Source of the DNA: Nageia nagi
Lineage: Eukaryota > Plantae > Pinophyta
Assembly (NCBI GenBank): GCA_050084985.1
Contig: JBITNC010000001.1
Span: 170,376,001-170,440,000 of the forward strand
Reading direction: 5' to 3'
Length of the DNA: 64,000 nt
Below are positions 1 to 54,687 of this stretch, in pieces. The notes below the pieces were generated by a model. It had not been told where the DNA came from. It did not search any database and worked only from the letters and a program-made list of their open reading frames with translations. The translations under genes and the position numbers were made by a program. Every line of letters begins with the position of its first letter. Position 1 is the first letter of the stretch.

Positions 1-428
1 AAAGACTAAGGGCATTGATGAAAGATAGAGGAATCAAGTTGAAAAATCAGTACATGCTTTTCTTGTAGGAGACAGATCACCAAACACGAGATCTATGAAA
101 AATTGGACAAATTGTAGAGTGAGATGAACTCATGGGCGTATATTTCAAATAAAATACCTATGTTGTGTGATGTGGAAGCTGACGATAGAGAACAGTTATT
201 CGAATTGTGAAGAGCCTTTTAATTATGCATGACTACCGCAACCAAGTTTTTCTCCCTGATAAACACGTATACAAAAATGTGTGAGCATAGAGAAGGCATG
301 CAAATTACTTGACATAACGCCTCATCAAGATGCAGTTAAATGGACTGCAATGATGACTGAATATGCAAGGAATGGTTGTAGCAAGAAACATTCAAACTGC
401 TTGAACAAATGGAATATGTGGGGCATTT
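1..428 (+). pseudogene. Condensed PLS-E-DYW PPR pseudogene, copy A (3' part; continues left of the window)
   Basis: Reads RLRALMKDRGIK / VEKSVHAFLVGDRS / EIYEKLDKL*SEM / MLCDVEADDREQL / RIVKSL / ATKFFS, then jumps back to a PPR S-P pair (SIEKACKLLDITPHQDAVKWTAMMTEYARNG, ORF 281-517). The PG-box and the HSE catalytic segment are deleted; frameshifts and stops are present. Confidence 0.85.
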
Positions 429-727
429 GCATTAAGAACATTTTTATTTTGCATAATGAGGCTTGTACACATAGTATCCTTCTTACTGTTGCTTGTATGC
501 TTATTTACTTTACGTAACTTAAATGTGTTCTGAGTTGTCTTGAATGCTGTGAAGTGTTGTGTGCCTACGTAGGCATTAATAAGTTGTATTAAGAATTTTA
601 TGAGGGAACAAAATAATCTATTTCATCTCATGAGTGAAAAAAATAATAAGTTTCCAGCTGTATGAATAAAGAATATCGTTGCTAGAGCAAAATGATTAAA
701 GTTTCCTAGCTGCAAGCTTGTTTGCAT

Positions 728-1390
728 AGCCTTAATCATCATTGCAAGTATTTACATCATGGTAATTGAAGCATAAAAGTGTTAAGTTCCTTGGAAGTCA
801 TGTACACTGTTCCATTTCATGGCCTGAGTTGTTTGGATCTCAACACATATAACTTATGATTTCTTACAATAAATCCCAGCAGCTTCTCCATCTTAGCTTA
901 ATGACTACATTTTACAATCTCATTACTGCTTTCTGGCTATATCTTTCTCAGTTACAATCAAGGAAAAGGAAAAATTACAGTATGTAATGCAGCTATGCTT
1001 TTCTATAAGATTCTGGTTAAAATCCTTACTCTTGACATCTATTGAGAAAACTCTTTGCTATTTTCTGTCAAACGCCAAAGACTCAGGCTATTAGACATAT
1101 GGCAACTACCAAAGCAGAAGCTCAAGATCTGTGTCACCTATTAGCATTGGTGTAATGAGAAAATTATGCAGTTACCTTTGAACAGAGGAAATGTAAAGAC
1201 AAATACAGATACGGTGAGAAGATAGCACCATGCGCTTGTATTAGAGGTTCATTTACCATACTGTCTCATGATTAGAGAATGTGGAGGAAATACTGCACTC
1301 AAACCACATTGATAATTTGTTATTGAAACATTGGATGAAAACTCCCCTAATATCCAGTCCTCCCACACAAGAATGATTAATTCTGCTTGA
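728..1390. repeat. Duplicated non-coding module, copy A (near-identical to 16398-17057)
   Basis: Long stretches are identical to 16398-17057. Homology also covers 1-128 vs 16270-16397, so copy B lacks roughly 129-727 of copy A. Confidence 0.92.
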
Positions 1391-2580: not shown

Positions 2581-2830
2581 GAATGTTCTATTACATTTTT
2601 GTGTGACCTTAATAGGATCATTACAATATTTGAATTTCTAAATTCAAGATGCCCCTGCAGGGCTTTTTACAAATGTTTTTTTGCTCTGTCTGTGAGAGAT
2701 TTGTTCTTCTGCGTCCAATCCACGATCGTGAGCGCTCAATTTGGGATCAGCAGTGCTCAATCTGGGATCGCCAGCGACTGTCTAATCTCCGATGACTCTG
2801 GTATCTATCTTTTGTTCCAGTAATCTGCCC
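2370..2830. promoter_or_regulatory. CpG-retaining island, candidate bidirectional promoter / 5' exons
   Basis: Dense CpGs (cgatagcgatc, tcgcagac, ccacgatcgtgagcg, gatcgccagcgac) compared with CpG-depleted TE flanks. Minus-strand splice signals lie to the left, plus-strand donor-like sites (2801, 3175) to the right. Confidence 0.4.
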
Positions 2831-3358
2831 CGATTTTCAATCTTTTTTGCAAGTCTTCATGTACACTATTATACAAAACAATCCTACACACATGCTCACC
2901 CGACAAAGTTAGTGCATACTTGCATATGAGATATCAAAATACATCATAAAATCTAACATTCACAAGTAAGATAACAATGCCAATACTGTACTATAAATCA
3001 GCCTTCTCAGGAATATTTTTAACATAGTATTCTCCTCTTCTCTAGAATGTGAAGGTAGAGGAGCCAGGGGTTGTGATGTACGTGCAATGCATATAAATAA
3101 TTGTGCAAATTTGTTATGCTTTAATTATTCTAGCCTAAATTAGGAGTTGTGTTTACCCCGAGATCCGGATTCAGGTTATGGTTTGTAACAAATTTTGTTT
3201 CTAGGCAATGACTCACCATTCCAAGCCAAATTTAGTTTAAATTTGTTGTGTCGCCATTTAATGGGATCGCCAGCATCAGACAGAAAGTCGCCAATAATTA
3301 GTGTGAATAGTCGAATCGTCGGCATCCAATACAAATCAACAATGATCCTATTTAATCA

Positions 3359-3457
3359 AGGGAAAAAATTCAAAATACCCCTATAATTTCTAGTAAGATC
3401 GAAAATACTCCTGTATTTTTAGAAATATCGAAAATACCTTTCTGTTAATTTACCCCC
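3359..3457. mobile_element. Possible Mutator-like MITE remnant
   Basis: Starts gggaaaaaattcaaaatacccct and ends taatttaccccc, with internal gaaaatac repeats, resembling MULE TIR ends. No TSD found. Confidence 0.25.
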
Positions 3458-3493
3458 AAATGATATTAATATCATTTACTGAACTTTGTTCAG

Positions 3494-3834
3494 GTTGACC
3501 ATTGAGGATGCAATTCTGACTTGAACTCCTACAGTCCTGCGTCGCAGACAATGTCCTTCAAGATCCTTCATTCACTGGTCAATAGTATCAACTTAAATTT
3601 GGCATTATATGCACAGAGCAGATACGTTGAGAGGGCCTGCGAATTGGTTGATATTTGCCTTACGAATCCAATGAGCTCTCTCCCAGGCCTCCCGTATGTC
3701 CCATAAAATGAGGATTACAAAGAAAAATGTGTCGACAAACATGAGGTAGTCCATCCAGAGTGTATGCCATTCCTCACAAACAAAAGCACAACAGAGAGTT
3801 GATTTCAGCACTACAGCTCTATGGCTAAGAGATG
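3494..3834 (+). pseudogene. Highly diverged N-terminal PPR remnant with exon-like borders
   Basis: KILHSLVNSINL resembles QLLRSLINRIGL at 15396; YAQSRYVERACELVD resembles MYAKCGSIEKAxELFD; the 14-mer gtagtccatccaga is identical at 3746-3759 and 15609-15622. Flanked by ttgttcag| and |gtagga. Confidence 0.55.
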
Positions 3835-6386
3835 GTAGGATGTTTTACAATTTGCCCCTAAATTCTTAGAACGGAAATGATAAAGAATCCCGACTGTGAC
3901 AAGTATTAAATAAAGCAAGGCACCAGCATCTGAAATAATACATGGATCCTCCATCGACCTCCACACAATTTTCAGAAAGGCATGCTCCTTTATACTGGCC
4001 GCCCATATATTTTGACCTGTCAGACTTAAACATTGTCGCCTTGTATCTTTTGATATTGGCTTATTTGTATTGGCATTGGAATTTTATATTTTAAACGGTA
4101 TGATATATTTATATCTTTTATATAAATGTTCCCATAAAATAGTAATATTTATATCTTTTATCCTTCCAACAATCATTGAATGAACACAATGAACAATATA
4201 ATTAGCTTTTACCATGATTGATGATCCAATCTTCTTATCATTACATTATTCACTATTCAATAATATAGGATCTTTGGAAATTGGTCTTGAATCAACAGCG
4301 ATTGTTTCGCAGTTTTATAAGCATTATTAAAATGGTCATCAATTGATCAATTTTCAACCAAAAAGGGTCGTGTGATCACTCGTTTTCAATCTACTCAATA
4401 AGAGCTATCTAATGGTGTGGTTTTTAGATCTATATGACACTTCCACTAGAAGTTATGGTTATTTTAATATGACACAAGTAAAAAAAAGTTCATTTTGAGT
4501 GTCTATATTTTGCCCCTTTTTTAACTATCTTCTAATTTGTTGGAATTAAAGCTCAATCAAAGACCATTCGAGTTGAAGACCAAACCAGTTGAAGATAAAC
4601 TAGACTTGCAAAATAGATCAATAAACTTTGCAAAGACATAACATTTTGTAGAGAAATCCGATTGAGTTGATTCTTTTTTAATTGGATAGTGCTCGAAGAT
4701 ACCTTTCCAATGAGTATACGCATGCCTACCTTTGTTGAAGGTTTGACCATCATATTGGATGTTTTCTGAAAAACTATCCAATGCACTACGTTTTCAGCCT
4801 TCTACTCCAAGACGCAATACACCTCATTCCAAGCATAGTGTGCTCCAATACCAAGCATAGGGCGCTACAAACAGAGCCTACAATCCTATTTTAAGCATGT
4901 GCAGGATGTTATTTTTCGTCTTCAAGTTTAGGATCAAATGTTTCTATTTTGAGTATTAGCTTCTCCCACTTGTTGTTTAGCATGATAGGATATAATTAGA
5001 ACTTCTAGCTTGCTTTATGAATTGATTTGTAACAAGTTGTGATCATCCAACTTGAGTTTATATTTAGCACAGTCTATTTTTGGGTTTGTCCAAAACCTAT
5101 ATATGTAATGATTTTGTTTTTCAAATTAATGAAAGTAGAATGCTTCTCATAAGGGAGATAGGAGGTAGTTAAAAAATAATTGGGATAATTTGATATATAA
5201 TGCACAAGTATTTTAACTCGCAGCATTGACGCTTAGTGACAAATACAAGTGGTTTGCTTTTGAGTCATGGGCAATCATAGTTACCCCAATCATGACCAAG
5301 TATGACTCTTTGACTTTGCAATTGATGTGTTTTGAAAACACTTACGTTGTACACCAAATTGGTACTTAGGCTTGTCTCCATATGCCGTTAGCATGTAACA
5401 TGAAGTCCTCTCTATGTGTACAAGTTTGATTTTGGATTATCATGCTCTTACCCCAACAGGGTGGGTTTCATGATGATCCTTTGCAAAAATCATTAAAATC
5501 ATGCTTTTCCATGACTTTTAGGCGATAAGAGAAACGCAAGGTGAGTGTGGAAAAGATTAAAATATGGATGATTTTGACAAACGTTAAGTATATACAAGTA
5601 TCTAATACTCATGACCTTATTGATTGATGTTGAAAACAAATATCTTGTTTTAGGTCATGGAAAACCACAGTTGCCCCAATCACGACTAGACATATATAGC
5701 TTTTAATTTTGCAATTGACAACATTTCGCACTTGGTGTACATCTTAAGAGAGTTGTAACCATTTTCTTCTTGTTTGATCATGGTCTTACTTTGAGCATGA
5801 TGTCAGACTTAGCATTATGGCTCCCCTTTAGATGGACAAGGATTTGGTTGTTGATTTTTTATTGTTGATGAGTCTTTTGCTAAGATCGTTGGAAAAATGC
5901 ATGTGCAAGATAAAAAATTATTAGGCTGAACAAGGCCTAAATAACAAGTCAAATGTATTCCCCCTCAATCATTGAGGCAATGAGAAAAATATCAAGGCTT
6001 TTACAAAGACGATGAAAATAATTGACACAACGATGGATGACAAGAACACATATCATGTGGTTTGCTGCTCATTCTTAGGAGGCTTCAAACCATGATATCT
6101 TTTGTGTGCCACATAGTAATGTTATGGTGCCTCTCAAGATTGGATGATTGTTTTGATTTTTTTTGGAACATGATGTGATGAAACACAACAAAAGATAAGT
6201 CATAACTAGTAAAAACAATGACATATAGAAGATAAAATTATATAGTGTAAGAAACTATTTGGATTGTCTTGTTAGATAGGATTGGTATATTATTGATTTT
6301 TTTTTGTCAAACACCAATTTTGATTGTTTCAAATATATTTTAGATTCTTATGGATTTTAGATTTTAAATATTTGATATTAATGATG

Positions 6387-6613: not shown

Positions 6614-6882
6614 ATTATTTGGAGGATGTAGTTGTTAGAGACCCTTGAGTAAGAAGCCATGTTAGGGTAGAGGAATATTTGTAATAGATATATTGCAATG
6701 TTTATGATCTTATATATTCTAAGTATATTTATATTTGGATATTATGTATTGTATAGATGTGTAAGGGGTATGGAATAAGGTATAACATATAGGAAAAAAT
6801 GGGAAATGGATAATGTATGGTAATGAAAATGGAGGAAGAACATCGACTTCCAATTCTAAGGGAAGAACAATTCCTCGCTCTT

Positions 6883-8825
6883 GATCCCAAAGAATGATGA
6901 AAGCTATTAAATTTAACAATGTTCTAAGGATGTGAAATGAATGGAATATGGTAGGGAAAGAACATTGATTTCCAATTCAATGGGAAGAACAATTTCTTAT
7001 TCTCAATCCTAAATAATGATGGAAGCTATAAAATTTAACAATGTTCTAGGGTTGACTTCTATCAATCTACTATGAGCAATTTCTTGCTTAAATTTGTAAA
7101 TAAGAGTAGAAGCAAGAAGTTTTAGCAACAATAATGTTGACTTCCACATGGATGGGGAGAGTAATTACTCACTTTTTTTCCCAAAAATATGGAAGCACCT
7201 CGGATTTAACAACCTGTAAAGATGGATGTAGGAAATATGTGGATGTTGGGTAATGAAATGTGAAAGTTGTTGATCCCAAAGAATGATGAAAGCTATAAAA
7301 GTTAACAATGTTCTAAGGGTGTAAAATGAATGGAATATGGTAGGAAAAGAACACTGACTTCCAATTCAATAGGAAGAACAATATCTTATTCTCGATCCCA
7401 AAGAATGATGGAAGCTATAAAATTTAACAATGTTCTAGGGTTGACTTCTATCAATCTACTATGAGCAATTTCTTGCTTAAATTTGTAAATAAGAGTAGAA
7501 GCAAAAAGTTTTAGCAACAATAATGTTGACTTCCATATGGGTGGGGAGAGTAATTACTCACTCTTTTTCCCAAAAATATGGAAGCACCTCGGATTTAACA
7601 ACCTGTAAAGATGGATGTAGGAAATATGTGGATGTTGGGTAATGAAATGTGAAAGTTGTTGATCCCAAAGAATGATGAAAGCTATAAAATTTAATAATGT
7701 TCTAAGGGTGTAAAATGAATGGAATATGGTAGGAAAAGAACATTGACTTCCAATTCAATAGGAAGGATAATTTCTTATTCTCGATCCCAAAGAATGATGG
7801 AAGCTACAAAATTTAACAATGTTCTAGGGTTGACTTCTATCAATCTACTAGGAGCAATTTCTTGCTTAAATTTGTAAATAAGAGTAGAAGCAAAAGGTTT
7901 TAACAACAATAATGTTGACTTCCATATGGATGGGGACAGTAATTACTCACTCTTTTTCCCAAAAATGTGGAAGCACCTCAGATTTGACAACCTGTAAAGA
8001 TGGATGTAGGAAATATGTGGATGTTGGGTAATGAAATGTGAAAGTTGTTGATCCCAAAGAATGATGAAAGCTATAAAATTTAACAATGTTCTAAGGGTGT
8101 AAAATGAATGGAATATGGTAGGAAAAGAACACTGACTTCCAATTCAATGGGAAGAACAATTTCTTATTCTCAATCCCAAAGAATGATGGAAGATATAAAA
8201 TTTAACAATGTTCTAGGGTTGACTTCTATCAATCTACTAGGAGGAATTTCTTGCTCATATTTGTAAATAAGAGTAGAAGCAAGAGGTTTTAACAACAATA
8301 ATGTTGACTTCCATTTGGATGGGGAGAGTAATTACTCACTCTTTTTCCCAAAAATGTGGAAGCACCTCAGATTTAACAACCCGTAAAGATGGATGTAGGA
8401 CATATGTGGATGTTGGGTAATGAAATGTGAAAGTTGTTGATCCCAAAGAATGATGAAAGCTATAAAATTTAACAATGTTCTAAGGGTGAAATGAATAGAA
8501 TATGATAGGGAAAGAACATTAACTTCCAATTCAATGGGAAGAACAATTTCTTATTCTCAATCCCAAAGAATGATGGAAGATATAAAATTTAACAATGTTC
8601 TAGGGTTGACTTCTATCAACCTACTAGGAGGAATTTCTTGCTTAGATTTGTAAATAAGAGTAGAAGCAAGAGGTTTTAACAACAATAATGTTGACTTCCA
8701 TATGGATGGGGAGAGTAATTACTCACTCTTTTTCTCAAAAATGTGGAAGCACCTCAGATTTAACAACCCGTAAAGATGGATGTAGGAAATATGTGGATGT
8801 TGGGTAATGAAATGTGAAAGTTGTT
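6883..8825. repeat. 389-bp tandem repeat x5 with internal ~122-bp subrepeat
   Basis: gatcccaaagaatgatgaaagctat recurs at ~6883, 7272, 7661, 8050 and 8439; units are highly similar. Confidence 0.95.
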
Positions 8826-10214
8826 ATGGTATAATGTATGTGGGGGGATGGTGGAAAGTGATATGAACATGGTATAAACAAATGGATGGGCATAGTAAAT
8901 ATGCGTATGTAGGGGACTGGTATGTATACTCAGGATGTATTAAGCGTTTGAAAGATAAACTAATCAACTCACCAAGGCATTAATAACATATATATTATGT
9001 AAGTAATGTATTATATACAATACAGTAATAGGTGGTGTGTGAAATGGTAAAGGAAATGTAATGACCAGAAGATTCAAGTTGATTCTCTCATCTTGTGACG
9101 ATATAAAACAAGGTCATAACAGATCCAAATTATCATCGACTATCTTTTTACAATTGTAAACTTGATGTCATAAGAGCATGAAATATATAAGTCAATTCAT
9201 CCATATGAAATGTACAGATGTTTGTAGGAAAGAAGGTCACTAATCAAAATAGACATGTCGCCACTCGTAAGGTATGCCTCACTACCTAACAAGCGTCCAT
9301 AGCCTCGATGAGGATTAACCTTTCAATCTTGCTACAACCTTTCTCTACTACCAGTCAAGCATCCATAGCCGTGATAGAGAATATTGTAATCACCCAGAAA
9401 TCATTGATGTAATGTATGATTTTTTTAATGATTTTTTCTCTTCTCTCTTGTTTTTTTTTTGGAAAATTTTTTAATGTATTCTAAATGATTCTTAGGTTGG
9501 GGATGAAGCAAATAATAGGATGAGCATGTAAAATCGCTCAAAATCATGCTCAAATAACACCTCATTCATGACTGCTCCAAGATTATTAATTCTGACAATG
9601 TATCATAGTTATGTTTGTTTATCATCCAAGTTTCAAAAATTTCAAGTGGAAAGATTAATAAACCAATAAGCATATCAAGCTCATAAACTATTTCTTTGAT
9701 AATAGTGATAAATATTAAATATATTTTTATGAATGTACGAAAGTAAACATGAGTAATGTATGTATGCCTTTAGGAGTTGTCAGAATACAATCTGACACTC
9801 AATTGTAATGGAACGAATGGAAAACACAAAGTGAAGTGTATGGAAGACATATTGGGTAAGCAAATATCTTGTTGATTCTAGATGGAGTGATATGAAAATG
9901 GTCCTAATGTGGTATATGAAGTAGATAAGGGATATGAAAAGAAATGTATTTCGGGATTAATACATCAAGACCCGCTAAATTGACAATTCGATCAAGTGCA
10001 TAAACCAATATGTACCATAAAGCATTCATGAAAATTATATAATATTTCAAAACCAAGCAAGGATAGTCTAGAACATGCAATTTCAATAAATATATGAAGA
10101 TTCATTCTTCTAAGTATCATGAGGATTGTGGATTTATTGATATAACATTTGACAATTTTGAATATAATATTTTTTATATAGATGTAAGTATAACTTTTGA
10201 CGTTATAAGTATAC

Positions 10215-10812
10215 TCGTGATGAGATTGCCGTTGTGGTTGTAGGCATAACCATGATGAGACTACCTTTGTCGCTATAGTCATAACCATGATGGGACTGCC
10301 TTTGTGGTTGTAGGCATAACCATGATGGAATTGCCTTTAAAAATTGTAAGCATAATTTTGATGAAGATTGCTTTTTGTGGTTGTAAGCATAACCATGATG
10401 ATGATTGCTTTTTGTGGTTGTAAGCATAACCGTGATGAAAATTGCTTTTTGTGGTTATAAGCATAACTGTGATGAAAATTGCTTTTTGTGGTTGTAAGCA
10501 TAAACGTGATGAACATTACTTTTTGTGGTTGTAAGTATAACCGTGATGAACATTGTTTTTTGTGGTTGTAAGCATAATCGTGATGAAGATTACTTTTTGT
10601 GGTTGTAAGTATAACCGTGATGATGATTGCTTTTTGTGGTTGTAAGTATAATCGTGATGAAGATTGTTTTTTGAGGTTGTAAGCATAATCGTGATGACAA
10701 TTGCTTTTTGTGGTTGTTAGCATAACCTTAATGACAATTGCTTTTTTGTGTTTGTAAGAATAACCATGATGACGAATGCTTTTTATGGTTGTAAGCATAA
10801 CCATGATGAAGA
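10215..10812. repeat. 37-bp minisatellite, ~16 copies
   Basis: Unit cgtgatgaagattgctttttgtggttgtaagcataac; period of 37 checked at 10377/10414. Confidence 0.95.
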
Positions 10813-13800
10813 TGTGTGCATGTTGATATTTGTTGAATATATTTTGATTTTTTTTCTTGGACATAGTATGTACAAAGATGACATAAGTTTGAGCGGTGTT
10901 AGGACCACAAGGAGGTGGACGACTCTCCCAATGTGATGTGAAGGGGGTCAAATGCCTAAATGTGAATAACATGGTTTATCATCATTTGATTGTGTAGAAT
11001 GTGTGGATATGCTTAATGCATGGGACAGTGATGGATGAGGTATATATCCAACTCAAATCGTCCATCATCTATGAAATCTTGAAAGACATGCTTTAATTGA
11101 TGGCATTGATCAGTATCATGCCCTAGTTGATGATAAACACAATATTCATGCTCATTGTACTTTCTTGACTCAGCATGAGATTGCTTTCTCTCAAGTAACG
11201 TGATCCACTATTTATCATATAACTGTTGAAAAATTTATGATATGGGAACTAGCAATGGTGTAAATTGTATATTCTCATCATTTTGTTTTTGTTCTAAAGC
11301 ATGGGTGCTTTGGTTCCCCAAGATTGATAGGATGTGACATTAGAGATCCTCCCTTAAGTGTTGGACATAGAAGCCTAGTGTTAGAGACGAGCAAGCATTG
11401 AGGACTCCATAGAGGCTTAGGTGGAAAATGTACTAGTGTGCACATAGATCTCTTTTTCTTGTTCTCTATATTGTGACAATGACCAAAGACAAACCAATCA
11501 CTAAAGTTATAAATGAACTTGCTTATAGAGAGCTTATTTGTGAGGCATTGAATTGTTCCATGTTCCATTTTATTAATGGAAAGAGTAAAACCATGAAGAC
11601 TGAGTGTGATTTCATTCATGAATGTGAAATCTTGCAGTATGTGTGGCACATGGAAAGGCCATGAAAGATAGATCATATTGACCCACTCAGGCTTTACGTT
11701 TTCTTTCATCATATAATTGACCCTCATCTTAATAAGATATCATTCCCCTGTAGTTTTATATCCAAAGCACATATATGACATTGGGAAACATATCTTTCAG
11801 TGATCATATTCTGAATCTCAACTACCATACCAGAGAGACATCTTATTGCCATTGATTTGCATTAGAGAAAAAGATGGTCCCCCAAATATCGAGGGTGATA
11901 GGAGGAAAAGCAAAGTTTGTTCAATTGAATTTGAATAGACCCCCTTGTAAACCATTCTTTCTCAGTCTGTATCAGGGATATGTTAAACAAACAAGTAGAA
12001 ACTAAAATGTTAGACTCAACCATCTTAGGTTGTTCTAATGATTGCATCTTCCAATTTCATAACTTCACAATGATGCCCCTATCAAACATGACCTTCATAA
12101 CCCAAACATGTATTATCCTTAGGCATTTGATAATAACGGCTTGTGTTGGGTGGCCAACGTGGTAATAATGGTATGCACAACAAGCTAGAATGAGGAGTAA
12201 CTAGCATAGATAACTAGTGAGACCAAGGGGGTACGCTCTCCAATAAAATGACATGAAACCAACATGATTTGAGATGGTCCCTCGAAGAAGATGGATGGTG
12301 ATTTCCCTTTTGGCTTTGGCACAACTCCCTAGTACTGACGACCATTAATGGATTGGTTGATTTTGATTGCAACCCATAAGGATGGGTGATTTATTAGCCT
12401 TAAGTGATGTTGATGATATCCTAGCAACGATTGATAATAATGTAAACCAAGGTTCCACAAGGCATTGGGAACGAGGGAATGGGGAATTTATCTAATTTCA
12501 TTGGGAAACAAGGGAATGTGGGAACGTGTTCCCAAGTACAAAGAATGCCTCCTCCAAGGGCGGGGGGGGGAACACGTTCTTGTGGAACCCTAATGTAAAC
12601 CCATAAGATTTACACACTAAGATTAGGTCACAAGAAAGACTCATCATCAAGATTGAACTTTGCAAAAATGTGATCATGTAACCAGATGCAAGGGGTTTCA
12701 TTTAGATAAGGACATTCATTTGAAAATGATGATTTACCTTCAACTAATTCACATGTGGGTTGCTTTGCATCAGAGTTGCATTCACATGGTCAAAATTGAT
12801 AACTTCCATATCAGACAATGTTGAATATGAATGCTCAATATTCTTCTTTCTTTCATCTTGTTGTTTATGAGGCAAAAAGATGTCTAAGTTTGGTTGATGT
12901 GTTGGGTCACAGATAGGGGGAACATTAGAGATAATATCAGTCGCTTCAAACTCCCTCAATCTTAAACTAGTCGAATGGACTTGCATACGTAAATTGCTAA
13001 AAGGATCATCGACATTATGGACATATGGATAAGATGACTGAGAAGTTGTAGGTTGATATAGGATGGTTAAACATGCAATTTCTGCTCTATAAGATCATCA
13101 AATAGGATATTAGAGTTTTTAGAGGTATTTACCTCTTCTTTCAAAAAGGTATCAACTTGAACAAGAAGCGATGGATTGTCACCCAATAATTGAGACTCCT
13201 CATGATTGATAGGCAACATAAGAGATGTTGAGAGGGTAACATTGGGATTGATGATGATTTTGGTATTGTGGGTCTCCTAGCACGAATATCCAATAACATG
13301 GTTGTAGATATAACTTCATACATGACATGCGAACTTTCATACTTAATGGGTGATGAAGTAGGATCCCCAATGGATGAAGGCAATTAATATGTAGCAAGAG
13401 ATTGTTCTACTTCATATGGTGTAATCTTTGTGTCAATACCTTGAGTTCTTGTGATTTTATATAAATTTGATTTCTTGGCAAAGACACGAGAGCTTTGTTC
13501 TTTGACAATCTTTATGATTGAAGTTTGTTGGGGAGACTCTCGCATGAGAGTTAATCCATCATCATGAGTAATGCGATGAGAAGCATCTAGCCTATTAGTC
13601 GCATGTGTATCAGGTGTCATAGATTGAGAAGATTTCTCAATTTGATCCGTGTGATAAGATTTCTCACAAGATATAAGGGCTGATCGATATTCACAAGGAG
13701 ACATAGAATGCCTCGCGTACTTTGAATTACGATGACTATCATGATCATGAGTAATTTGTGGAACAATAGGACTAGGCTTACCATGATCCATGATTGCTGG

Positions 13801-15344
13801 TTGCGAGGTATGGTTAGATGAATCTCGGGATTTTTCATCTCGTTGTTGATAGCTCTTCGAAGATGTAGATTTTCTATAATATAGCTCTTGTTTAGAGGAA
13901 TATTCTTGATATCTCTCCTTTTGTGACTCATAATTTCTCTTATCATACTTTATATCATCTTTTTTATCATCTTGTCGCTCAAGATTAGAAGAAGAATGGT
14001 TTTGGTCATATCTAGAAGAAGTATGTCCATAAGACCTATAATATCATTCATGATAAGGATAACTCTCATATCTATTATCTAGTCATTCACGTAAATGAGA
14101 GTCAAGAAGATAAAATTGATGATTCTTGGGGGAAGGAGATTCATATCTTTTATGATTTTATTGATCCTGAAATTGTTCGTAGCGTGGAGTACTTTGTCTA
14201 GAAGATTGGTTATGATGTGGGAACACATAACATTCTTCATCATACTAGCAATGAGAACGGCTAGACTGTAGTAAAGTAGGACTCAACTAATGAACCCTTT
14301 GACTACAAGTTTGAACAATGTTAACCCAAGGATCAAGATCCATGGTTAACAAGAATAAACAATTGTTTCAAAGGTTTAAGAGTACTTTTTTGACTACACA
14401 ACCTTTACATTAAGATTGCTAATAGGTGAATCATGTAAACAAATATGCTTGGTTGATTTGCTCAATTGGCATTTATCCCTAATGTAAACAAATTTATCCT
14501 AGCAATTTTTTATTAATACTAACCACATGAAATGCATGCTTTCAATACTAAAGGTATGCTCTTTTTTATTTTAAATCATGCCTATTATGAACCTACTTCG
14601 ATATCCAAGCTTTTGTTGATATTTTTTTGTTGTTTGTCTTCTTTTTTCATGATCAAATTTTGCTTCCCTTATGGTTTTGCTTGCAACACATGAAAATTGA
14701 CAAAGACCAGCAATATGCAATCTTAATTACAAAAATGACATAGCTTGAAAAATAAGCCAAAAATAAAATCAAGCCCAAGACATAAAACAAATAATATATG
14801 AGTAACCAATTTCAAGAAGCCAACAGTTCAAACAGTTCATAAAACGGAGCCTCAGAACTCAAGTTATGCAATTAATTATATTAATTAAAATGATTAATAC
14901 AATTAAAATTAAAATTGCAGCTTGAAAAACTAGCTTTTGTATGAAGTTCAAAGACCCAAAGTATGTCGTTCAAACACTCCTTTCGAAGGTCCTAGAATTA
15001 GGATCACAATGGAACAGACAAAATAAAAAAGGGAGGTCAAGTTTTAAAGTAATGGATGAAACTGTTCCGGAGACCTCAAATTGCCAATTTAATTGTTTTT
15101 TTCAAAAAACGACCTGGACTGGCTGACAGATTTCAAAATTGAAATTGGTAGGTTAAACACAAGATGAGGGTATCATCTAACCACTCGTTTCGACCGACAC
15201 GAAACAACGATTGTAGTGGATCTGACGGATTGAAAATCAGATGCAAAAGTTATCGCAAAAAGGACTGTCTTCTGAGGGGCTGTAAAATATGATGAAAATC
15301 CAATCTTGCTAAGAGGTTATGATCATCCGTTGATTATGTTTTTA

Positions 15345-15350
15345 CACGTG
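15345..15350. promoter_or_regulatory. G-box (CACGTG, in ACACGTGGC context) just upstream of mini-PPR copy B
   Basis: Exact motif ~35 bp before the PPR-homologous sequence starts, in a CpG-retaining stretch. A single short motif, so weak evidence. Confidence 0.25.
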
Positions 15351-15381
15351 GCTCAACTCCTCCTGATTTGTATCCCAGCAA

Positions 15382-16400
15382 TGTTCATCAATGGGCCAGC
15401 TCCTTCGCTCACTCATTAATCGCATTGGACTTAAAATTGACATGTACAGTAACAAAGTTTTGCAAAACAGATTTATTCATATGTATCTTTTCCAACTGTA
15501 TGACTGAACAAGATGTTCTCTCAGATTATAACAATTTGAGGTTACCAAAGACATGGTTGTCAACAACAGATATTAACACTGATTCACCAAATCTAAGGAA
15601 TAGCAGCAGTAGTCCATCCAGATCAATTTGTGTTTCTCAGTGTCCTCAAAGCACGCATAAAACTGGGAGATTTGCAACAGGGTTTTTGCATACATCAAAG
15701 ACTCTTTAAAAGCGGATTTCTGTAAAATATTGAAGTTGTGAGTGCCCTGGTAGACATGTACGCAAAGTCTGGAAGCATAGAGAAGGCGTGAAAATAATTT
15801 AACATAATACCTTGTGAATATGCAGCTTCATGGATTGCAATGATTGCAGGATATGCACAAAATGGATTTCCTGAAAAGGCCCTAGAGACTTTAAAGCATA
15901 TGCAATTGTTAGACGTAAGCCAAATTCTATAAACTTTGCCAGTATACTTCCAGCATGTGCCACAATGAGAGCGTTAACAGAAGGTAGGGATAGCCATAAA
16001 AGATTAGTTAAAAATGGTTTTGCATCAAATGTTGCGGTTGTGAAGGCTGTAAATACTTTAATAGCACGAGTGACTCTTATTGTATTATTCCTGGGATGAA
16101 TCATTCATTATACGTGCAACGTTGACCTTCATGGAAGTACAGGCTATCTTGAGGAAGCTCTGAACTACATTGCCAAGATGCACATAAAACCTAAACTGCG
16201 TGTGTGGGTGTGTCTTCTTGGTGCTTCTAGATCATATTTAAGCTAAAGTGGTCAGCTGAAATGATGTTCAAAGACTAAGGGCATTGATGAAAGATATAAG
16301 AATCAAGTTGACAAATGGGTACATGCTTTTCTTGTAGGAGACACATCACCAAACACGAGATCTATGAAAAATTGGACAAATTGTCGAGTGAGATGAAGCA
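15382..16400 (+). pseudogene. Condensed mini-PPR (PLS-E/E+) pseudogene, copy B
   Basis: Collinear motifs VLQNRFIHMY, VHPDQFVFLSVLKA, VVSALVDMYAKSGSIEKA, SWIAMIAGYAQNGFPEKALET, KPNSINFASILPACATMRAL, EGCKYFNSTSDSY, GYLEEALNYIAKMHIKP, VWVCLLGA, VHAFLVGD. At least three internal deletions (~16042, ~16235, ~16307), plus stops and frameshifts. Confidence 0.9.
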
Positions 16401-17057
16401 TTAATCAATGCAAGTGTTTCCATATTGGTAATTGAAGCATAAGAGTGTTAAGTTCCTTGAAATTCATGTACACTGTTCCATTTCATGGCCTGAGTTGTTT
16501 GGATCTCAACACGTATAACTTATGATTTCTTACAATAAATCCCAGCAGCTTCTCCATCTTAGCTTAATGACTACATTTTACAATCTCATTACTGCTTTCT
16601 GGCTATATCATTCCAGTGTTAACAAAGGAAAAGGGAAAATTACAGTATGTAATGCAGCTATGTTTTTCTATAAGATTCTGGTTAAAATCCTTACTCTTGA
16701 CATCTAGTGAGATAACTCTGCTATTTTCTGTCAAACGCCAAAGACTCAGGCTATTAGACATATGGCAACTAACAAAGCAGGAGCTCAAGATCTGTGTCAC
16801 CTACTAGCATTGGTGTAATGAGAAAATTATGCAGTTACCTTTGAACAGAGGAAATGTAAAGACAAATACAGATACGGTGAGAAGATAGCACCATGCGCTT
16901 GTATTAGAGGTTCATTTACCATACTGTCCCATGATTAGAGAATGTGGAGGCTAGTTACCATACTGCACTCAAACCACATTAATAATTTGTTATTGAAACA
17001 TTGGATGAACTCCCTAATATCCAGTCCTCCCACACAGAAATGATTAATTCTGCTTGA
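16398..17057. repeat. Duplicated non-coding module, copy B
   Basis: Near-identical to 728-1390. Confidence 0.92.
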
Positions 17058-19500
17058 GATCAAGTTCAATTCTGAAAAGACAGGGGGTTTCATTGCTATC
17101 TTCCTTTTGAAAGATTGAAGAGGGTTAGTCATTTCTCGAAGCTAGATAAACATGTCTATGACTTTAAGAAAAAATTTCCACACAAGACTTGTAATATTGA
17201 CATTCAAAAAGGTTTTCCCGTTTTCTATAGACACTTTTTAAGGCATTTGTGATTGTTGAGCCAAGGACTTTGCCTAACAAGTGTGACATTCATTGCAGCA
17301 AAATATGGTGTTGAGAGGTATTTCACATCATAATTTGCAACAGACTTAAGCTTTTTGATGGTGCCACTTTATTATCAAACTTGAGAGTATATGTTATTAT
17401 TTGATTTATAGGATTTTCCAGTTAATTTACAAGAAGCAAGCTGTTTTCATGCTGATTCTTTAACAAACAACTGTTGTATTGGAAATATCCTTCCTTAAAT
17501 ACTTACTTTGGATTGAACTTCTTGTGAAAGGTAAACTATGGTAAGCTGTTCTCCAATCAAAACAATTGAAACCATGTCATTGCAAGCTAGCCAACATAGG
17601 ATAATAAGAGTATAATTTCAATTATTAGGATTTGGTGTATGTTGAAATTGTTCTTTGGTAGTCTTTTTCTCATTTCTAAGCAAAGTCATACACTATCAAA
17701 TTGTTCCCTATTTCATGTATGCTTCTACCTATATTAGACTAGCCAAAGAACAGAATGCCCATAGTACTAGAGCAACAAGAATTCATGTCCAACAATACAG
17801 AGCAGGTAGAACAATTATAAATACAGTGGAAAATCATACAACCTTCTCTGTCTCATTTCTTTAACATATTTATATTGTTATAGATTTATTACATCATTGT
17901 AAAATAATAAAATCAATATTAGGTGAGTGGTTAGAACCACTCAAGTAGGTAGGAATTGTGTGAGTTGTTTGTATTTATTTGTAGGTGTATTGTGAAGTGT
18001 TAGCATGGAGCTAGAAGACAAACCGTGTTGTTTGTGCTCAACAAACTATTTTTCGTATAAATATGCATGTATAGCATAATGAATATATTGCATTATAAAT
18101 TCTTACAGATGCACTTTTCAGTTATACATTTGTTCTTCCTAGCTATTTCAAAGCCTTTTGGAAGGACGTCTGTGGGGATTATGGTTGTGTTTTCACTTTC
18201 AAAGCCTTCCTACGTCTCTTCACTAGATTACAAACCAGTCAGATGTTTATTCCAAAAAGATGATTTCCCATCCATAACTGCAACAAAAGATTTTACATTA
18301 CCTTTCCCTAAGAGGGGTGTTGTTATCACATATTGGCACTCTTGCATCTGGATCTTGAGGTCATAGTTGTGCACCATGTGTTTGAAGTTTCTTACATCAA
18401 ACATAAGCTAGATAAAGAGGTTAGGTACAATGTCTACATATTCTCAATCTAAATAGGCTATCATGTAAGCTGATGGGTGCTGAGTTGGTTAGAAGAGATT
18501 ATAAGTTAACATTTTCGTGTTCAAAACTATGACGTGGTTTTCTCTTTTGAACCATAATGAAATGACGACCAATACACAACAAAGAAGTTCTTTAATTCTC
18601 AGATGTTAATTTTTATATTAATGGAAAAATTTACTTTGAAGCATGATACCAAAAGGTTCCCAAGAAGGAAGAGATTTATTAGATAGATACACCCCATTTC
18701 ACATGAAAAATTGCCTTGTAATAGTTTGTGCAAATGCTCGAACTTCCTTTTTAAGTGTCTGAACAACTTGAAAGAATACATTCAAATCAACAATACCAAC
18801 AATAGGAATCCACTTTAACATTCAAATCAACAATACCAACAATAGGATTCCATCCTAGCAATCTTAGTATTTGACAAATAATGAAATATTATACATCTGA
18901 AGCAATTCATACGTACTAGGCAATCCCTTTCCACACAAAAACAGCTATACATCTCATACCAGTAAAAATAGTATTAAGGCCGGACATCCACCATCATCAA
19001 CATCATGTTCCCATCTATACCTGTGTTGATCAAAAAAATGGATACAGAAATATCAATTAATGACAATAACAAAGGAAAGTGAAACATATATATACAGAGA
19101 GACATGCCTCATCATACCATTATCCACACGATAGTGATGACTGATAGGGACAAGAATTTCCCTGATGCAACGAATAAGCTTCATGATAGTGAAAAATGTT
19201 GGCCGTGGCTTCTACACTCTACACAAAACTGCATTCGGCTCTCAAAACCTTCATATTTCCCTCAAATCTCCCAGATTTCATGTGGCCCAGAACAGGGTAT
19301 CCACCAAAGCCCTAAACGAATGCAAATACGCTGTGAGGAAATGTATAAATAGAGAAAATGTATATAAGCTGATTATGAAATACCAATACTTACAGCAACG
19401 GCTACAAGGGTTCGGGGAGAGCCATTGAAGATGCTCCCAAACGGTAACCTGATGTCGGTCACCTCTGCCCATCAACGGCTAGAAAAGCGAAGATCATGCC
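16420..19500 (-). ncRNA. Putative multi-exon antisense lncRNA B (convergent on mini-PPR copy B)
   Basis: Consistent minus-strand GT-AG introns: 19393-19331 (GTAAGT..cacag), 19117-19021 (GTATGA..U-rich..acacag), 18959-18278 (GTATGA..ttttgttgcag), 18106-17072 (GTAAGA..cttttcag), 16958 or 16919 to 16839. CpG-rich first exon; only short ORFs. Confidence 0.5.
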
Positions 19501-19504
19501 TAAA

Positions 19505-22500
19505 GACATACAACCCCATTCTCTGTTTTAGAGGGACATGTTATTTATTTTAGAAGGACATGCTGTTGTAGTATAATATCCCCTACTCAAACTACGGTAA
19601 TCATTCAAATAAGGGATATTTTTGGAATGATCTATTTTCCAATGAGATAAAATAGAGGAAGTGACTTCCCAAATCCATGGAGTCCTCCATACAGCGAAGG
19701 GGTCTTTATTGTATATTATACTGCCTTTATTTAATATTTAATTGGTTAAATAATTAGTTACTTTTTTTTTCCACAAATATATGAAAATAAGTAATTTTCA
19801 TATTAATTATAAAAAAGAAAAGTAAAATTAACATTTAACATCTTTTAAATTTATTCATGGTTTCAAGGATTTATCAAGAGTGTTTAAATATTATTAATAT
19901 TAGGAGGTGGAAATTGAACTTAGGACTTTCAATGTGGATACTTTCACACCTTACTTATCTTCAAACTCTCCTAATAAGAAGTGATAGATAATATTTGCAA
20001 GGATTCTCTTCATATTTCAAGCTTAAGGAGAGCAATGAGGAAATCCAGTAACCATTGAATTACAAATGTGATTTTTATATCATTACAATCCTAAGATACG
20101 ACATGTGAAGAATCTTGGGAGAACCTATGTAGTTTATGTTGCAATCTAATATTAGAGTACCATTTAATAATATCCTCTTTCTTTTTTTATGTTGCCCTTG
20201 TTCATAAAAAATAATAATAATAATTAAAAAATTTAAGGACATAACTTTTGAGTCTAGTTTGTAGAACGGTCGATTCCCTCAACTTCTATGTAATTATTTT
20301 CACAACTTCTTCAACAATTAAGAACCCCTGCCAAGTTATAAAAGGGAGTATATATTTCAATTTATTAATGATTATTCTACTCAAACAACCTTCAAACTTC
20401 CCAAATGATTTCAGAAAGAACTCCAAAAACTTTATCTTATTAAATGTAACTATGCAACTCTTTGCCTACCATACGATGGCATACAATTTATGCTTATGTA
20501 CATGAATGCAAAAGTCTAGGTCAAACTATTGGGTTGTTAGGTCACCTTCTAGGTCTTCATTCAATTTATTCTCTATATAGTGGTTTACTACATAATTTTT
20601 GCTACACTAGTGTATTGTATAATTTTGGTATGCTAGCATACAATATTTAAGGATAAATTACTTTAAATATCACTCAAACATAAGAATCCTCAAAATCTTC
20701 ACTCCAATGATACCTAATATATATTATCTAGTCCATTTTAGATCTCACCTCCCTAATGAGGAGGCATTTGATCTTCAAATAATTGGAGAAAATAATATTA
20801 ATATATTAAAATAATGGCCCCCTAAGTATCTCCATACCATCCCTCTCCCTATAGTTGATATACTAAAACAATCCATAAATTCCATGGTACAAATCCTCAA
20901 CAAGGTATGCATGGTAAATAGTATCCTCCATAACCTTGTACTCTCGTTTTGTTTTCTGCCTTCTTCTTCTTCTTGTGATGAAAAGCTTTCTTCACCTTAA
21001 ACTTCTTCACCAAATTTTGATCACATTATTTCTGAATTGGTGACTTCTTACCCTCTTGGTTCTTTACTATGTAAATGTTAGCTTTCTAGAAGCATAATCA
21101 ATCTTTTCATTTATCTCTCTTTGGTAACATGATTTCCACTTTTTCTCACATGAGACCTTACGATGAATTATCTACCATTCTTAATAAGGTGGTACTTATT
21201 CTCCTTTATATAATAAAAACCATCCTTAAAAATATATAAGGACTTCTTACTAGTATTCTAGCAACATCAAGAGCTACAACATCTATTTCGGCCTCATCAA
21301 TGAAATCAAGATTAATGTAAAACCTCATACTACATTGGTATGTGACTTGCATCTTATCTTACTATTCATCCTTGTAAATGGATAAGGATGTAAATAAGGA
21401 TGAGTCAACGATCCAAATTTTTGCATCGAGTCCTTTGAAATCACATTCACTTGAGAATCAAGATAAATAATAATAACATCAATCTTGGTATTTTTTACTT
21501 GGAATTTGATGTACAATAGCTGAACCTTTTTCTTCTCCTAGTCACCCTCTACAAATGAGCATCTCATGGCCATATAATTGAGCCTCTCTTAAACATTCAA
21601 GTTTTTATCAATTTCCTCCTAAATATCTCTTTTCCCATACATTCATGCATTATGAAGACTTGGCACACTATTTTTATTCTCATCCTCTCCTTGAAAATTC
21701 TCTACTTTTTTCTTAAACCAATATTATATGACAAAGATAATTATGCAAATCTCTAACACACTTCAATAAAGTTGAAGGATTAAAAATCAATATTATATGA
21801 CAAAGATAATCATGCAAACCTCTAGTATACTTCAATAAAGTTTCTTGGGTTTTGTTGACACTTGATTTAAACCACCCTAGTATCTTTAATTAAGTATTTC
21901 ATTATGATGTTTTCCTTATATTAGACTACTTGAGCACTTTCTCATATAATATTGTCTATTATTATGCAAGATACGTTAGTGTCGATGCTAGCTTGTAGGC
22001 ATGCATTATGGGGGTTCTCTTGCATATATAAATATGAGCATGTTACATGGGAAAGCTATACATGGGAAAGCTAATGAATATTTTATCTCAATAGTTAGTA
22101 CCACCTATGATGTAGATATTTCCTAAGACCTACCACCTTTTGAGATTGGGATCTTGTTATCACTCAAATATTTTTTGCTCCATCTTTCGTAATTATATGT
22201 TGTATTAGGCTTATCACCATAGAATGCTATTAGATCTTTGACTTGCATATGAGTTTGTAACAACCCTAGTGTGGATGCTCTTCTGGGTGCAAATATGGAG
22301 GTTATCATGGACATTATCGCTAGTGGTAATGATAAGCTTTGATCTTAATTGAACTCTAAATGATGTATCTTAAGATCTCTCTTCTATCAATAAGTCCCTA
22401 TCTTCATATACATTTGGTCATCCAAATAACGTGATAGGTATTTATCTTTCTTGATCCCTTTCTCAATAGTGCATTACTCAACCTTAATATTGATATTCTA

Positions 22501-24000
22501 CACATCATTGCTTATTCTTTATATACTATTATGCATAAAGATATTTTTTGTATTATCATTCTATATTCTTTGTCATATTTCATATATTGGAATCCACCTT
22601 TGTTGTACTTTCATTTTTTTAAATAAGATTTAGATAGAAAGTGTTTGCCAAAGTCACATAATTTCTCACAATGTCAAATGTTTTAAACATACTTTTTCAA
22701 TAATATGCTATGAGTTCTTTTTATGTACACAATAATAAAAAATGTAGTGGTATCATATGAGCATACTAACACTTAATGCAACAATATTACACCAACAAAA
22801 AGGGATATAAAAATACCACCATAGGTGATGAATGAAGGGAAAGTGAAAGGATCAAACAAATACATCAAAAAGCAAAATCCAATGATCTTAGAATTATAGA
22901 AGAATATACTCAAGTATACATAAAGGATGTTCCATTTGATGAAGAAAGTTCTATAACAAGTTCTTCAAGCTTAACAAAATAAATGGTTAGCAAAGAAGTG
23001 CAAACTAATGATAAAACTTAAGAAGATGGATTCAAAACTTTGATAAATTCTAATATAGATCAGAATGAGGATTTCTTCTAGAAAATTATTGGCATACTAA
23101 ATTCAGATTTATAAATTTTTTTAAAGGAAACACCACTATAAGAAAGGGCTTATATGGTACAAGCTTTTAAAGAGGGTGTATAAGTTATGAAATAAAGGCA
23201 ATTATGATATGACCAAAAACTTCTTCAGAGAAGAAAACTCTTAAATGCATACTAACACCATGAAAAATAGGATTTTTGTTTCTCTTCACCAAAATCAATC
23301 TTTCCACACCAAGTGAAAATGGCACAAGTAAAAGACCTCAACATCACCAATGTCAAAAGTTTTAATGATGAAACTAGCATTAACATTGTTATTTTTTAGG
23401 TTGATCTAGGATATAATCTAGTTTTTGGTGTTCCTAAGGAAACTATTACCACTTGTGACAATCAACATAATAATTTCACTATAGAATTTAATGATAAAAT
23501 CATAAATTGAATAACAATAGGAGATATTCTTCATGAAAATACTATAAAAGGAATGAAAATATAAGAAATAGATCTATCTTCTTTAGACAATTCATAAGAA
23601 ATACCATAAATTTCAAATGTAAAGGGCAACAATTATTCTCTTAAGCAAGATAAAAGCTTCATTCATGAGAAAAGCTAATGCAAAATGAAGAAATCCTTAA
23701 TGAAGAAGAAGATGATGATGAAGAAGATGTTGCTTTAGAAGATGAAATAGAACTCTAAGAAGAACTTGACCAAGAAGAGAAGCTTCAAAAATAACTTCAA
23801 AACTTTATAAATGAATTACTACAACCATACTCATATTGGTCACTAGTAGATAATCTTATTAAGTTCAATTACTTCCAACTCAAGGATCACTCATATTTGA
23901 ACACTTTATCAATAAAAGGCAAAATCACTCTCTACAACATATGAATCATCTAATTCAAGGAACATCATGCTAAAAGTATGGGGATATTTTCTCTCAAGGG
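19505..24000 (-). mobile_element. Internally deleted chromovirus-like Ty3/gypsy remnant plus flank, copy 1 of a ~4.5-kb duplication
   Basis: Protease-like IKFQVKNTKIDVIIIYLDSQVNVISKDSMQKFG..HPYLHPYP (21325-21516), gag-like 22123-22314, and vestiges of RNase H (KLYAIV) and integrase near 20.4-20.5 kb. Collinear with 34272-39015. Confidence 0.75.
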
Positions 24001-24329: not shown

Positions 24330-25000
24330 TTTGTATCATGTTTCAGGTTATTTTTTGTATCATATATTGCATTTCTGATAGCATCATAATTGCATCATAT
24401 ATTATTGTACTAGTAGAGTTGTAATTGTGTTGTATATTGCAATGCTGGTAGAGTCGTAATTGCATCATATATTATGTTTCTATTAGCATCATAATTACAT
24501 TTCTAGTAGATTTGTAATTATGTTGTATATTACATTGCTAATAGCATTGCAATTGCATCATATATTATGATGTTGATAGAGTTGTAATTGCATTGCATAT
24601 TACATTGTTGAAACAGTCGTAATGCATTGTATATTGCATTATTGATAGAGTCATAATTACATCGTATATTACATTGTTGATAAATTCATAATTACATCAC
24701 ATATTGCTTTTTTGATAGAGTCATAATTGCATCATATATTAGATTACTGATAGAGTTGTAATTCTATTGTATATTGCATTAGTGATAGTCATAATTGCAT
24801 TGTATATTACATTGCTAGTAGATTCATAATTGCATCATATATTGTGTTGCTAATAACATCATAATTGCCTCATATATTGCATTGCTAATAAAGTCATAAT
24901 TACATTGTATATTATCTTACTTATAGATTTGTAATTGTGTTATATATTATGTTGTTGATAGCATCATAATGGAGTTGTATATTGCATTTTTAATAGCATC
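24330..25000. repeat. 35-bp degenerate minisatellite, ~19 copies
   Basis: Unit ~gcattgctgatagagtcataattgcatcatatatt; period of 35 at 24385/24420/24455; truncated by the copia LTR at 25001. Confidence 0.9.
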
Positions 25001-30236: not shown

Positions 30237-30497
30237 TCATTATTATTTCATTTTGAGACCTTGTTGAGGTGCTTCATTACTAGGTTTTGCATTGGAATTA
30301 GGGTCAGATTTAGGGTCAACAATAGCATTGAGATTAGCATCGAACTTTTTTGTTAAAAATAAATAAATAATTTTATTTATTAATTATTTATTTATTATTA
30401 TTATTTTATTATTTATTTTTTATATGATTTGTGTAATTATTAATTAACTTATTTATTATTAAATTATTAATTAATTAATTAATGTTATTATATGTTT

Positions 30498-31590: not shown

Positions 31591-31721
31591 TGCAAAGTAA
31601 TACAATATCTAAAGATTCTTGCATAAATAGACAATGTTGTTGATTTTTGGCATCATATTATCAATTGAATGCAACTACTTATGTATATTGATACCTTAAT
31701 TTTTGATAAGAAAATTATACC

Positions 31722-33447: not shown

Positions 33448-33458
33448 TGCAAAGTAAT

Positions 33459-53205: not shown

Positions 53206-53287
53206 TTTTAAATATAAGTTATCATTTGTTTTACTTTTTAATGCTGATAAACACATGTTTTCCTATATGAAGGTGACTATCTACAAT

Positions 53288-54614: not shown

Positions 54615-54687
<73 letters not shown>

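What the first reader, a model, noticed from the sequence alone, without database searches (positions are those of the whole stretch)
15340..19500. Candidate PPR-silencing module: condensed mini-PPR facing a spliced antisense lncRNA
Seen: a ~1-kb non-coding digest of a PLS-E PPR gene on the + strand runs straight into a unique segment. That segment carries the last predicted exons of a minus-strand transcript with five consistent GT-AG introns and a CpG-rich first exon. The same arrangement recurs at 1-2.6 kb. Known: PPR families are major phasiRNA targets, and non-coding TAS1/2 and TAS-like loci that regulate PPRs are described in eudicots. Inference: convergent transcription could give PPR-homologous dsRNA (nat-siRNA or phasiRNA) that tunes the expanded DYW-PPR family in trans. 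I am not aware of this architecture being described in gymnosperms.
Basis: partly seen in the sequence, partly recalled or inferred. Interest (0 to 1): 0.78.

Follow-up and report, generated by a model that had tools for sequence, protein, structure and literature searches.

The report
Live PPR pseudogene beside borrowed exons
A broken copy of a conifer RNA-editing (PPR) gene faces the first exons of an unrelated spliced RNA in a DNA patch that has kept cytosine motifs lost all around it; it is likely a still-transcribed by-product of local duplication, and the proposed gene-silencing role remains untested.

Summary
The PPR remnant is real (15382-16398, +; about 50% amino-acid identity to Cryptomeria DYW-PPRs, 4 stops, about 11 frameshifts, three internal deletions). 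It is one of at least nine broken PPR stretches in the window. A minus-strand spliced 5' module is also real: one public run shows the 82-nt intron 19312-19393 spliced out. The rest of the five-intron model is not shown. The best-covered related contig leaves at the exon-3 donor for sequence absent from the window, and a near-identical contig reads through the predicted donor at 18301. The 'recurrence' at 1-2.6 kb is a 94% duplicate of 128 + 653 bp; its upstream part is unrelated. New here: 15.0-19.7 kb and 1-4 kb are sharp islands that keep CWG motifs (26 per kb against 4 elsewhere), unlike the six remnants farther along, and a 92% relative sharing the remnant's lesions appears in the run. 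Best reading: an unsilenced, likely transcribed chimeric pseudogene/lncRNA locus made by duplication and deletion. Convergent overlap, dsRNA, small RNAs and trans-silencing are untested; no trigger site was found for six spruce miRNAs. Silencing module about 12%.

The parts
15000..19750 (.). CWG-retaining, gene-like island (CG-rich at both ends, CG-poor at 16.4-17.9 kb); edges approximate
   Evidence: 1-kb tiles CWG o/e 0.74-1.62 here; 55 tiles outside the two islands 0.0-0.68
15000..15381 (+). CG-rich upstream region, possible promoter of the remnant (inferred)
   Evidence: 8 CG in 15101-15300; an X1 contig matches 15124-15406 with 23 differences and 10 gap letters
15382..16398 (+). Broken PLS-E/E+ PPR remnant, no DYW domain; deletions near 15487, 16043-16048, 16234 and 16303
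   Evidence: 92% collinear relative over 15412-15775 in X1
16404..17057 (.). Segment duplicated at 738-1390 (93.8%); holds predicted minus-strand acceptors 16963 and 16792 and donor 16838
   Evidence: X1 contigs over about 16425-16793 carry 1-kb-copy letters at 4 of 8 listed differences
17875..18100 (.). Short dispersed repeat (TG...CA ends), also inside unrelated X1 contigs; no CWG
   Evidence: about 10 contigs at 80-90%, one 3725 nt long, loose ends at both edges
18302..18404 (-). Predicted exon 4 (donor 18301); 5' edge uncertain; not shown spliced
   Evidence: X1 contig 18267-18385 (1 difference, depth 4.9) runs through the donor
18960..19020 (-). Exon 3 of the minus-strand 5' module
   Evidence: X1 783-nt contig matches 19013-18957, then continues 255 nt or more into sequence unlike the stretch; not found in the window
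19118..19311 (-). Exon 2 (3' edge predicted); non-coding, since 9-nt and 14-nt indels separate it from the X1 relative
19312..19393 (-). Intron 1, 82 nt, GT-AG; shown spliced in a related copy
   Evidence: joint 19310/19393 CT..AC in one X1 contig, depth 117.8, shorter side 29 nt
19394..19490 (-). Exon 1, GC 54%, CpG o/e 0.76; 5' edge approximate
1..1390 (.). Sister copy: PPR E+/DYW-start remnant (1-about 200), PPR fragment (254-about 500) and the shared segment 738-1390, inside a second CWG island (1-about 4000)

Best explanation
This is a broken PPR gene copy joined by duplication and deletion to pieces of other sequence, including the first three exons of an unrelated minus-strand spliced RNA, and the whole patch is likely an unsilenced, weakly transcribed non-coding locus with no dedicated silencing function. 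Shown: the remnant is frameshifted and deleted; it and the next 650 bp have a 94% sister copy 15.7 kb away; intron 1 is spliced in a related copy; the patch keeps CWG and end-CG motifs that the six remnants at 30-47 kb have lost. Inferred: (1) a PPR gene of the expanded Cupressaceae-type PLS-DYW clade lost function but kept an open promoter, so it escaped CHG methylation and collected lesions while transcribed; (2) this broken unit was duplicated, and the 16-kb copy lost 609 bp and gained 17058-19518, which carries a copy of the 5' exons of another RNA whose main copy splices to an exon elsewhere; (3) both ends may fire at low level and could overlap, giving at most incidental dsRNA.
For: Remnant broken, one of at least nine PPR stretches (1-500, 15.4, 30.5, 31.7, 32.8, 33.4, 39.0, 40.3, 46.5 kb); closest proteins are Cryptomeria PLS-class PPRs (7 of 8 clusters looked up). 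Duplicate and deletion junction. 16404-19518 has no counterpart before the older duplicate block 19519-23973 / 34326-39013. X1 783-nt contig leaves at donor 18959 for foreign sequence (best window match of its 30-nt end 20 of 30). Donor 18301 read through. X1 contig 15412-15775 is 92% identical with only 2 gap letters, so it shares the deletion at 15487. CWG 26.0 against 4.0 per kb (limits drawn after seeing the tiles); remnant CWG/GWC 30/21 against 28/54 in six others, Fisher p 0.007; CG/GC p 0.019. No coding signal in the added segment (Pfam, 0 of 97 frames above a curated cut-off). In Platycladus, 26% of TE-linked pseudogenes are transcribed and captured fragments favour first and second exons (PMC13477047, sections 11-12 read).
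Against: All transcript evidence is from contigs of one run whose RNA status is the tool's guess, and the deeper contigs are 85-96% relatives, not this locus; the near-identical ones (17949-18242, 18267-18385) have depth 3-5 and could be DNA or pre-mRNA. CWG retention can also mean a young copy of genic DNA. One X1 contig's match ends at 16793, two bases past the predicted last acceptor (bin arithmetic), and one weak joint links 16203 to 16659 (depth 3.7, side 24 nt): both hint that the downstream segment is part of real transcripts near a PPR. Lesions shared at 8% divergence with no CWG loss mean the locus stayed open for a long time, which selection could explain. No transposon ends were found around 16404-19518.
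Confidence: 0.58

Rival explanations
1. Silent young duplicate: gene-derived pieces were copied here recently enough to keep gene-like composition, and this locus itself is not transcribed; all RNA signal comes from paralogues.
For: Deeper X1 contigs differ from the window by substitutions and indels; those over 16.4-16.8 kb resemble the 1-kb copy; homology with the X1 exon-1 contig stops at 19481, 38 bases from the older block, so the parent promoter may be missing.
Against: 4-8% divergence from relatives without excess C-to-T or G-to-A on the window side (A>G plus T>C 44, G>A plus C>T 50) and transition/transversion 0.84 between the sister copies against 1.32 in eroded blocks (small counts); near-identical X1 contigs exist.
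Confidence: 0.2
2. First reader's module: the minus-strand RNA runs through 16404 into the remnant, pairs with the plus-strand pseudogene RNA, and Dicer products silence intact PLS-DYW PPR mRNAs in trans (cis-NAT type).
For: Island spans exactly both units with CG-rich ends; intron 1 real; contig edge at the last acceptor; no AATAAA-like motif on the minus strand in 16400-16840; the 15828-15865 motif matches 22-28 contigs in X1 and up to 33 in X2 at 85% or more; 316 of 997 remnant 21-mers have at most 3 mismatches to another in-window remnant. Rice pseudogenes give antisense siRNAs (PMC2708354, abstract).
Against: Best-covered 5' module goes elsewhere after exon 3; donor 18301 read through; second copy is a duplicate with unrelated upstream DNA; deletions look like those of neighbouring dead remnants; splice motifs not above chance. 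Any PPR pseudogene has target-like 21-mers. Only 84 of 1,439 Arabidopsis cis-NAT pairs give 10 or more siRNAs per million from the overlap (PMC3439971, abstract).
Confidence: 0.12
3. TAS-like locus independent of the antisense RNA: the plus-strand pseudogene RNA is cut by a lineage-specific 22-nt miRNA and made into phasiRNAs by RDR6/DCL4.
For: Open, lesion-sharing relative in X1; spruce has PPR PHAS loci and 606 non-coding PHAS loci (PMC4651229 section 6); a Chinese fir unigene called PPR was cut 21 nt from a predicted miRNA site, though the same paper elsewhere calls that unigene a NAC factor (PMC3462689 passages).
Against: Best target penalty 8.0 for 6 of the spruce triggers tested on both strands, against 9.5-15 in shuffles; real sites score about 4 or less (recalled).
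Confidence: 0.1

Closest known systems
Transcribed duplicated pseudogenes and captured gene fragments of Cupressaceae genomes (Platycladus, PMC13477047; abstract and sections 11-12 read)
   Same: Broken duplicate of an expanded family; likely transcribed; neighbouring copy of first exons of another RNA.
   Different: No host transposon was identified here, and captured fragments there are not less methylated than other TEs, whereas this patch has gene-like CWG content.
Pseudogene-derived antisense siRNA loci of rice (PMC2708354, abstract only)
   Same: Pseudogene of a large family with possible antisense RNA and adjacent paralogous pseudogenes.
   Different: Those are defined by mapped small RNAs, mostly 24 nt; none could be mapped here, and CWG retention argues against long-term 24-nt silencing (inference).
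TAS1/TAS2 (miR173) and TASL1/2 (miR7122) PPR-regulating loci of eudicots (passages of PMC5902766, PMC9157080; the primary paper was not held)
   Same: Non-coding locus able in principle to yield PPR-matching 21-mers.
   Different: They need a 22-nt miRNA trigger and RDR6, not convergent transcription; this locus is a recognisable collinear pseudogene.
cis-NAT / nat-siRNA pairs (PMC3439971, abstract only)
   Same: Two units pointing at each other.
   Different: Overlap of the two RNAs is not shown.
Spruce PPR and non-coding PHAS loci (PMC4651229, passages and section 6)
   Same: Gymnosperm precedent for PPR phasiRNAs.
   Different: No PPR trigger is listed in its Table 1; 'antisense' does not occur in its main text.

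Membership tests
PLS-class PPR pseudogene | Homology to PLS-class PPR genes with E/E+ region | tested here: met
PLS-class PPR pseudogene | Disabling stops, frameshifts or deletions | tested here: met
   4 stops, about 11 frameshifts, no DYW; longest PPR-frame stretch 74 codons
Transcribed pseudogene | RNA from this copy | tested here: inconclusive
   X1 contigs over the remnant are about 92% relatives; strand unknown
Spliced lncRNA | Canonical introns removed in RNA | tested here: inconclusive
   1 of 5 rebuilt introns shown, in a related copy
Spliced lncRNA | No protein-coding capacity | tested here: met
   Longest ATG frame 90 codons, in the last predicted exon; no Pfam family above cut-off; frameshifting indel in exon 2 against the relative. 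The parent RNA elsewhere may code.
cis-NAT / nat-siRNA pair | Overlapping opposite-strand transcripts | tested here: inconclusive
   Contigs carry no strand; best-covered 5' module leaves at 18959
cis-NAT / nat-siRNA pair | siRNAs enriched in the overlap | not testable with these tools
   no small-RNA run available
TAS/TASL/PHAS locus | 22-nt miRNA trigger site | tested here: inconclusive
   none for 6 spruce triggers of 41 families; eudicot PPR triggers and Cupressaceae miRNAs not tested
TAS/TASL/PHAS locus | Phased 21-nt siRNAs and cleavage of PPR targets in trans | not testable with these tools
   needs small-RNA and degradome data
MIRNA or other structured RNA gene | Rfam match or miRNA-like hairpin | tested here: not met
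   0 Rfam matches; best fold 17600-17800 minus, z -2.8, irregular stem
Pack-MULE or other transposon capture | Terminal inverted repeats or LTRs around the captured exons | tested here: not met
   no long inverted or direct repeat flanking 16404-19518; Helitron ends not tested

The most novel reading that the evidence does not exclude
A small family of condensed PPR pseudogenes in a Cupressaceae-type conifer has been kept unmethylated and transcribed while its neighbours were silenced, each copy facing an independently recruited antisense lncRNA; convergent transcription yields PPR-matching 21/22-nt siRNAs that tune the expanded RNA-editing PLS-DYW family without a miRNA trigger.
Probability: 0.12. 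Interest if true: 0.72.

Novelty: new member of a known kind. Interest (0 to 1): 0.3.

Why it matters
As read here it is an ordinary product of PPR birth-and-death, but a clear example that some conifer pseudogenes stay in open chromatin for a long time; CWG retention picks such loci out from sequence alone. If the silencing reading held, it would be a trigger-free route for controlling the lineage-specific expansion of RNA-editing PPR genes in conifers (PMC9545813 passages), and would speak to the open question of why plants silence PPR genes with secondary siRNAs (PMC5902766 passage). I found no paper on this arrangement: (five terms, 0 papers) and listings; subscription papers are mostly not searched.

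Tried and rejected
No genome held, so no synteny or copy count. Run search: no RNA holder listed on record; 3 runs of one study, only X1 holds part (share 0.13); X2 and X3 matched only short PPR motifs. Parts without cover in X1 (about 16794-17870, including predicted exon 16839-16962) and the lack of any contig over the 16398/16404 junction (0 of 52 records ran over the end at 16400) are holes in contig data and are not used as evidence. The 16203-16659 joint is under the tool's 30-nt side limit. Word search with a 74-aa piece found nothing. Atlas search of the 66-aa frame 19281-19478 gave no usable hit. The metagenome pattern hit L001 is a chance 23-nt match in 60% GC DNA. Rfam nothing. Automatic segmentation merged the two CWG islands into one segment 48-19723; the two-island picture rests on the tile profiles. 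One search timed out. Xia et al. 2013 not held. Earlier-findings look-ups returned nothing. Supplementary PHAS tables of PMC4651229 were not opened and may list PPR-like non-coding loci. Searches gave nothing used.
Full report
Setting. The window is 32% GC plant DNA. A HMMER search with a PPR frame from 33.4 kb returned PPR proteins; 7 of 8 clusters looked up are Cryptomeria japonica, one is Ginkgo. The organism is therefore likely a Cupressaceae-type conifer (inference). No genome is held.

The PPR remnant. 15382-16398 (+) aligns to an intact DYW-type protein over 339 codons at 50% identity, with 4 stops and about 11 frameshifts by my own aligner. It has an N-terminal piece, a few PLS repeats, E1, parts of E2 and E+, and no DYW. 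Against in-window relatives (79-81% DNA identity) it lacks about 240 nt at 16043-16048, 85 nt at 16234 and 21-28 nt at 16303. At least nine broken PPR stretches lie in the window, several with deletions, the one at 46.5-47.1 kb with 8 gaps. 'Condensed' is thus the local mode of decay, not by itself a design.

The recurrence. 16270-16397 matches 1-128 (94.5%) and 16404-17057 matches 738-1390 (93.8%). The 16-kb copy lacks 129-737, which is why the remnant abuts the next segment. Beyond 17057/1390 the two are unrelated. So there is one duplicated unit with different upstream additions. Downstream, 19519-23973 is an older duplicate of 34326-39013 (about 80%), which follows the 30.5-33.7 kb remnants without any counterpart of 16404-19518.

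The minus-strand RNA. I rebuilt the exons from splice motifs; such motifs are no more frequent on this strand than elsewhere. One public run, X1, holds part of the stretch. Its RNA status is the tool's guess; I take it as likely RNA because it shows a clean CT..AC joint and totals only 64 million letters. It is one run, contigs only, so strand, ends and level cannot be read. Intron 19312-19393 is spliced. A 783-nt contig matches exon 2 (6 differences, 9- and 14-nt indels) and exon 3, then continues at the donor 18959 into at least 255 nt unlike the stretch, not found elsewhere in the window. So the well-covered form is a related RNA whose body lies elsewhere. A contig with 1 difference in 119 nt reads through donor 18301. 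Contigs over 16.4-16.8 kb carry the 1-kb copy's letters at 4 of 8 listed differences, restore its length at two more and match neither copy at two (table cut). This is a weak hint. No coding signal was found.

The remnant in X1. A 362-nt contig is collinear with 15412-15775 at 92% with two gap letters, so it shares the deletion near 15487 seen; further pieces of similar depth cover 15851-15984 and 16085-16232. A broken relative is therefore likely transcribed, strand unknown.

Composition. CWG motifs run at 26.0 per kb in 1-4100 plus 15001-19600 and 4.0 per kb elsewhere (limits chosen after viewing). All 9 tiles inside have o/e 0.74-1.74, all 55 outside 0.0-0.68. The remnant keeps CWG (o/e 1.34) where six remnants at 30-47 kb have 0.21-0.47 (p 0.007). 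CG is low in the middle of the island and high at both ends. By established knowledge of methylcytosine deamination this is the mark of DNA that has long lacked CHG methylation; in Platycladus non-syntenic free genes have median CHG 0.52% against 78% for donor genes. A young copy would look alike; symmetric changes against X1 and low transition bias between the sister copies weigh mildly against that.

Silencing tests. Six spruce triggers from Table 1 of PMC4651229 have no site (best penalty 8.0). No Rfam family or miRNA-like hairpin. Target potential exists: 316 of 997 21-mers are within 3 mismatches of another remnant and one 38-nt motif matches 22-33 contigs per run, as for any PPR pseudogene.

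Literature seen. PMC4651229 passages and section 6; PMC5846777 passages (no PPR phasiRNA statement); PMC5902766 passages; PMC9157080 one passage; PMC9545813 passages; PMC3462689 passages; PMC2708354 and PMC3439971 abstracts; PMC13477047 abstract and sections 11-12. Xia et al. 2013 was not held. No paper held all five terms.

Verdict. An unsilenced, likely transcribed chimeric PPR pseudogene/lncRNA locus (0.58); silent young duplicate (0.20); cis-NAT silencing module (0.12); miRNA-triggered TAS-like locus (0.10). New member of a known kind; interest 0.3.

Noticed in passing
window 1-4000: Second CWG-retaining island, longer than the duplicated part; strong minus-strand acceptor 2424 and donor 2392, CG-rich 2250-2950 and 3250-3750.
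   Followed up: partly
window 3560-3770 (+): Possible very degenerate PPR-like piece (blastx E 0.4-0.5, not significant; 14-nt exact match to 15609-15622).
   Followed up: partly
window 30488-33707, 39.0-39.9 kb, 40.3-40.9 kb (+), 46.5-47.1 kb (-), 48990-49048: Further broken PLS-DYW PPR remnants, CG- and CWG-eroded; 30488-31584 still spans to the DYW end; 46.5-47.1 kb is inverted and heavily deleted.
   Followed up: yes
window 19519-23973 and 34326-39013: Older segmental duplicate, about 80% identical, each next to PPR remnants.
   Followed up: partly
window 17875-18100: About 225-bp dispersed repeat with short inverted ends, found inside many unrelated X1 contigs; MITE or small solo LTR (label inferred).
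   Followed up: partly
window 25.5-28.2 kb and 61.4-63.9 kb (-); 56434-56946 (+): Decayed copia-like pol frames (67% alike) and a gypsy-like reverse transcriptase frame; labels from recalled motifs, not from a family search.
   Followed up: no
window 6881-8825, 10195-10813, 24355-24996, 44554-45414, 51594-52206: Tandem arrays with periods 389 (5 copies, 96%), 37, 35, 294 and 54 nt.
   Followed up: no
window 53280-53451 and 53453-56201: Degenerate telomere-like CCCTAA-rich array directly followed by a 770-bp inverted duplication (53453-54220 / 55434-56201, 81%).
   Followed up: no
window 3360-3440: 29-nt tandem motif resembling a Mutator-type terminus (recalled); no partner found in the window.
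   Followed up: partly
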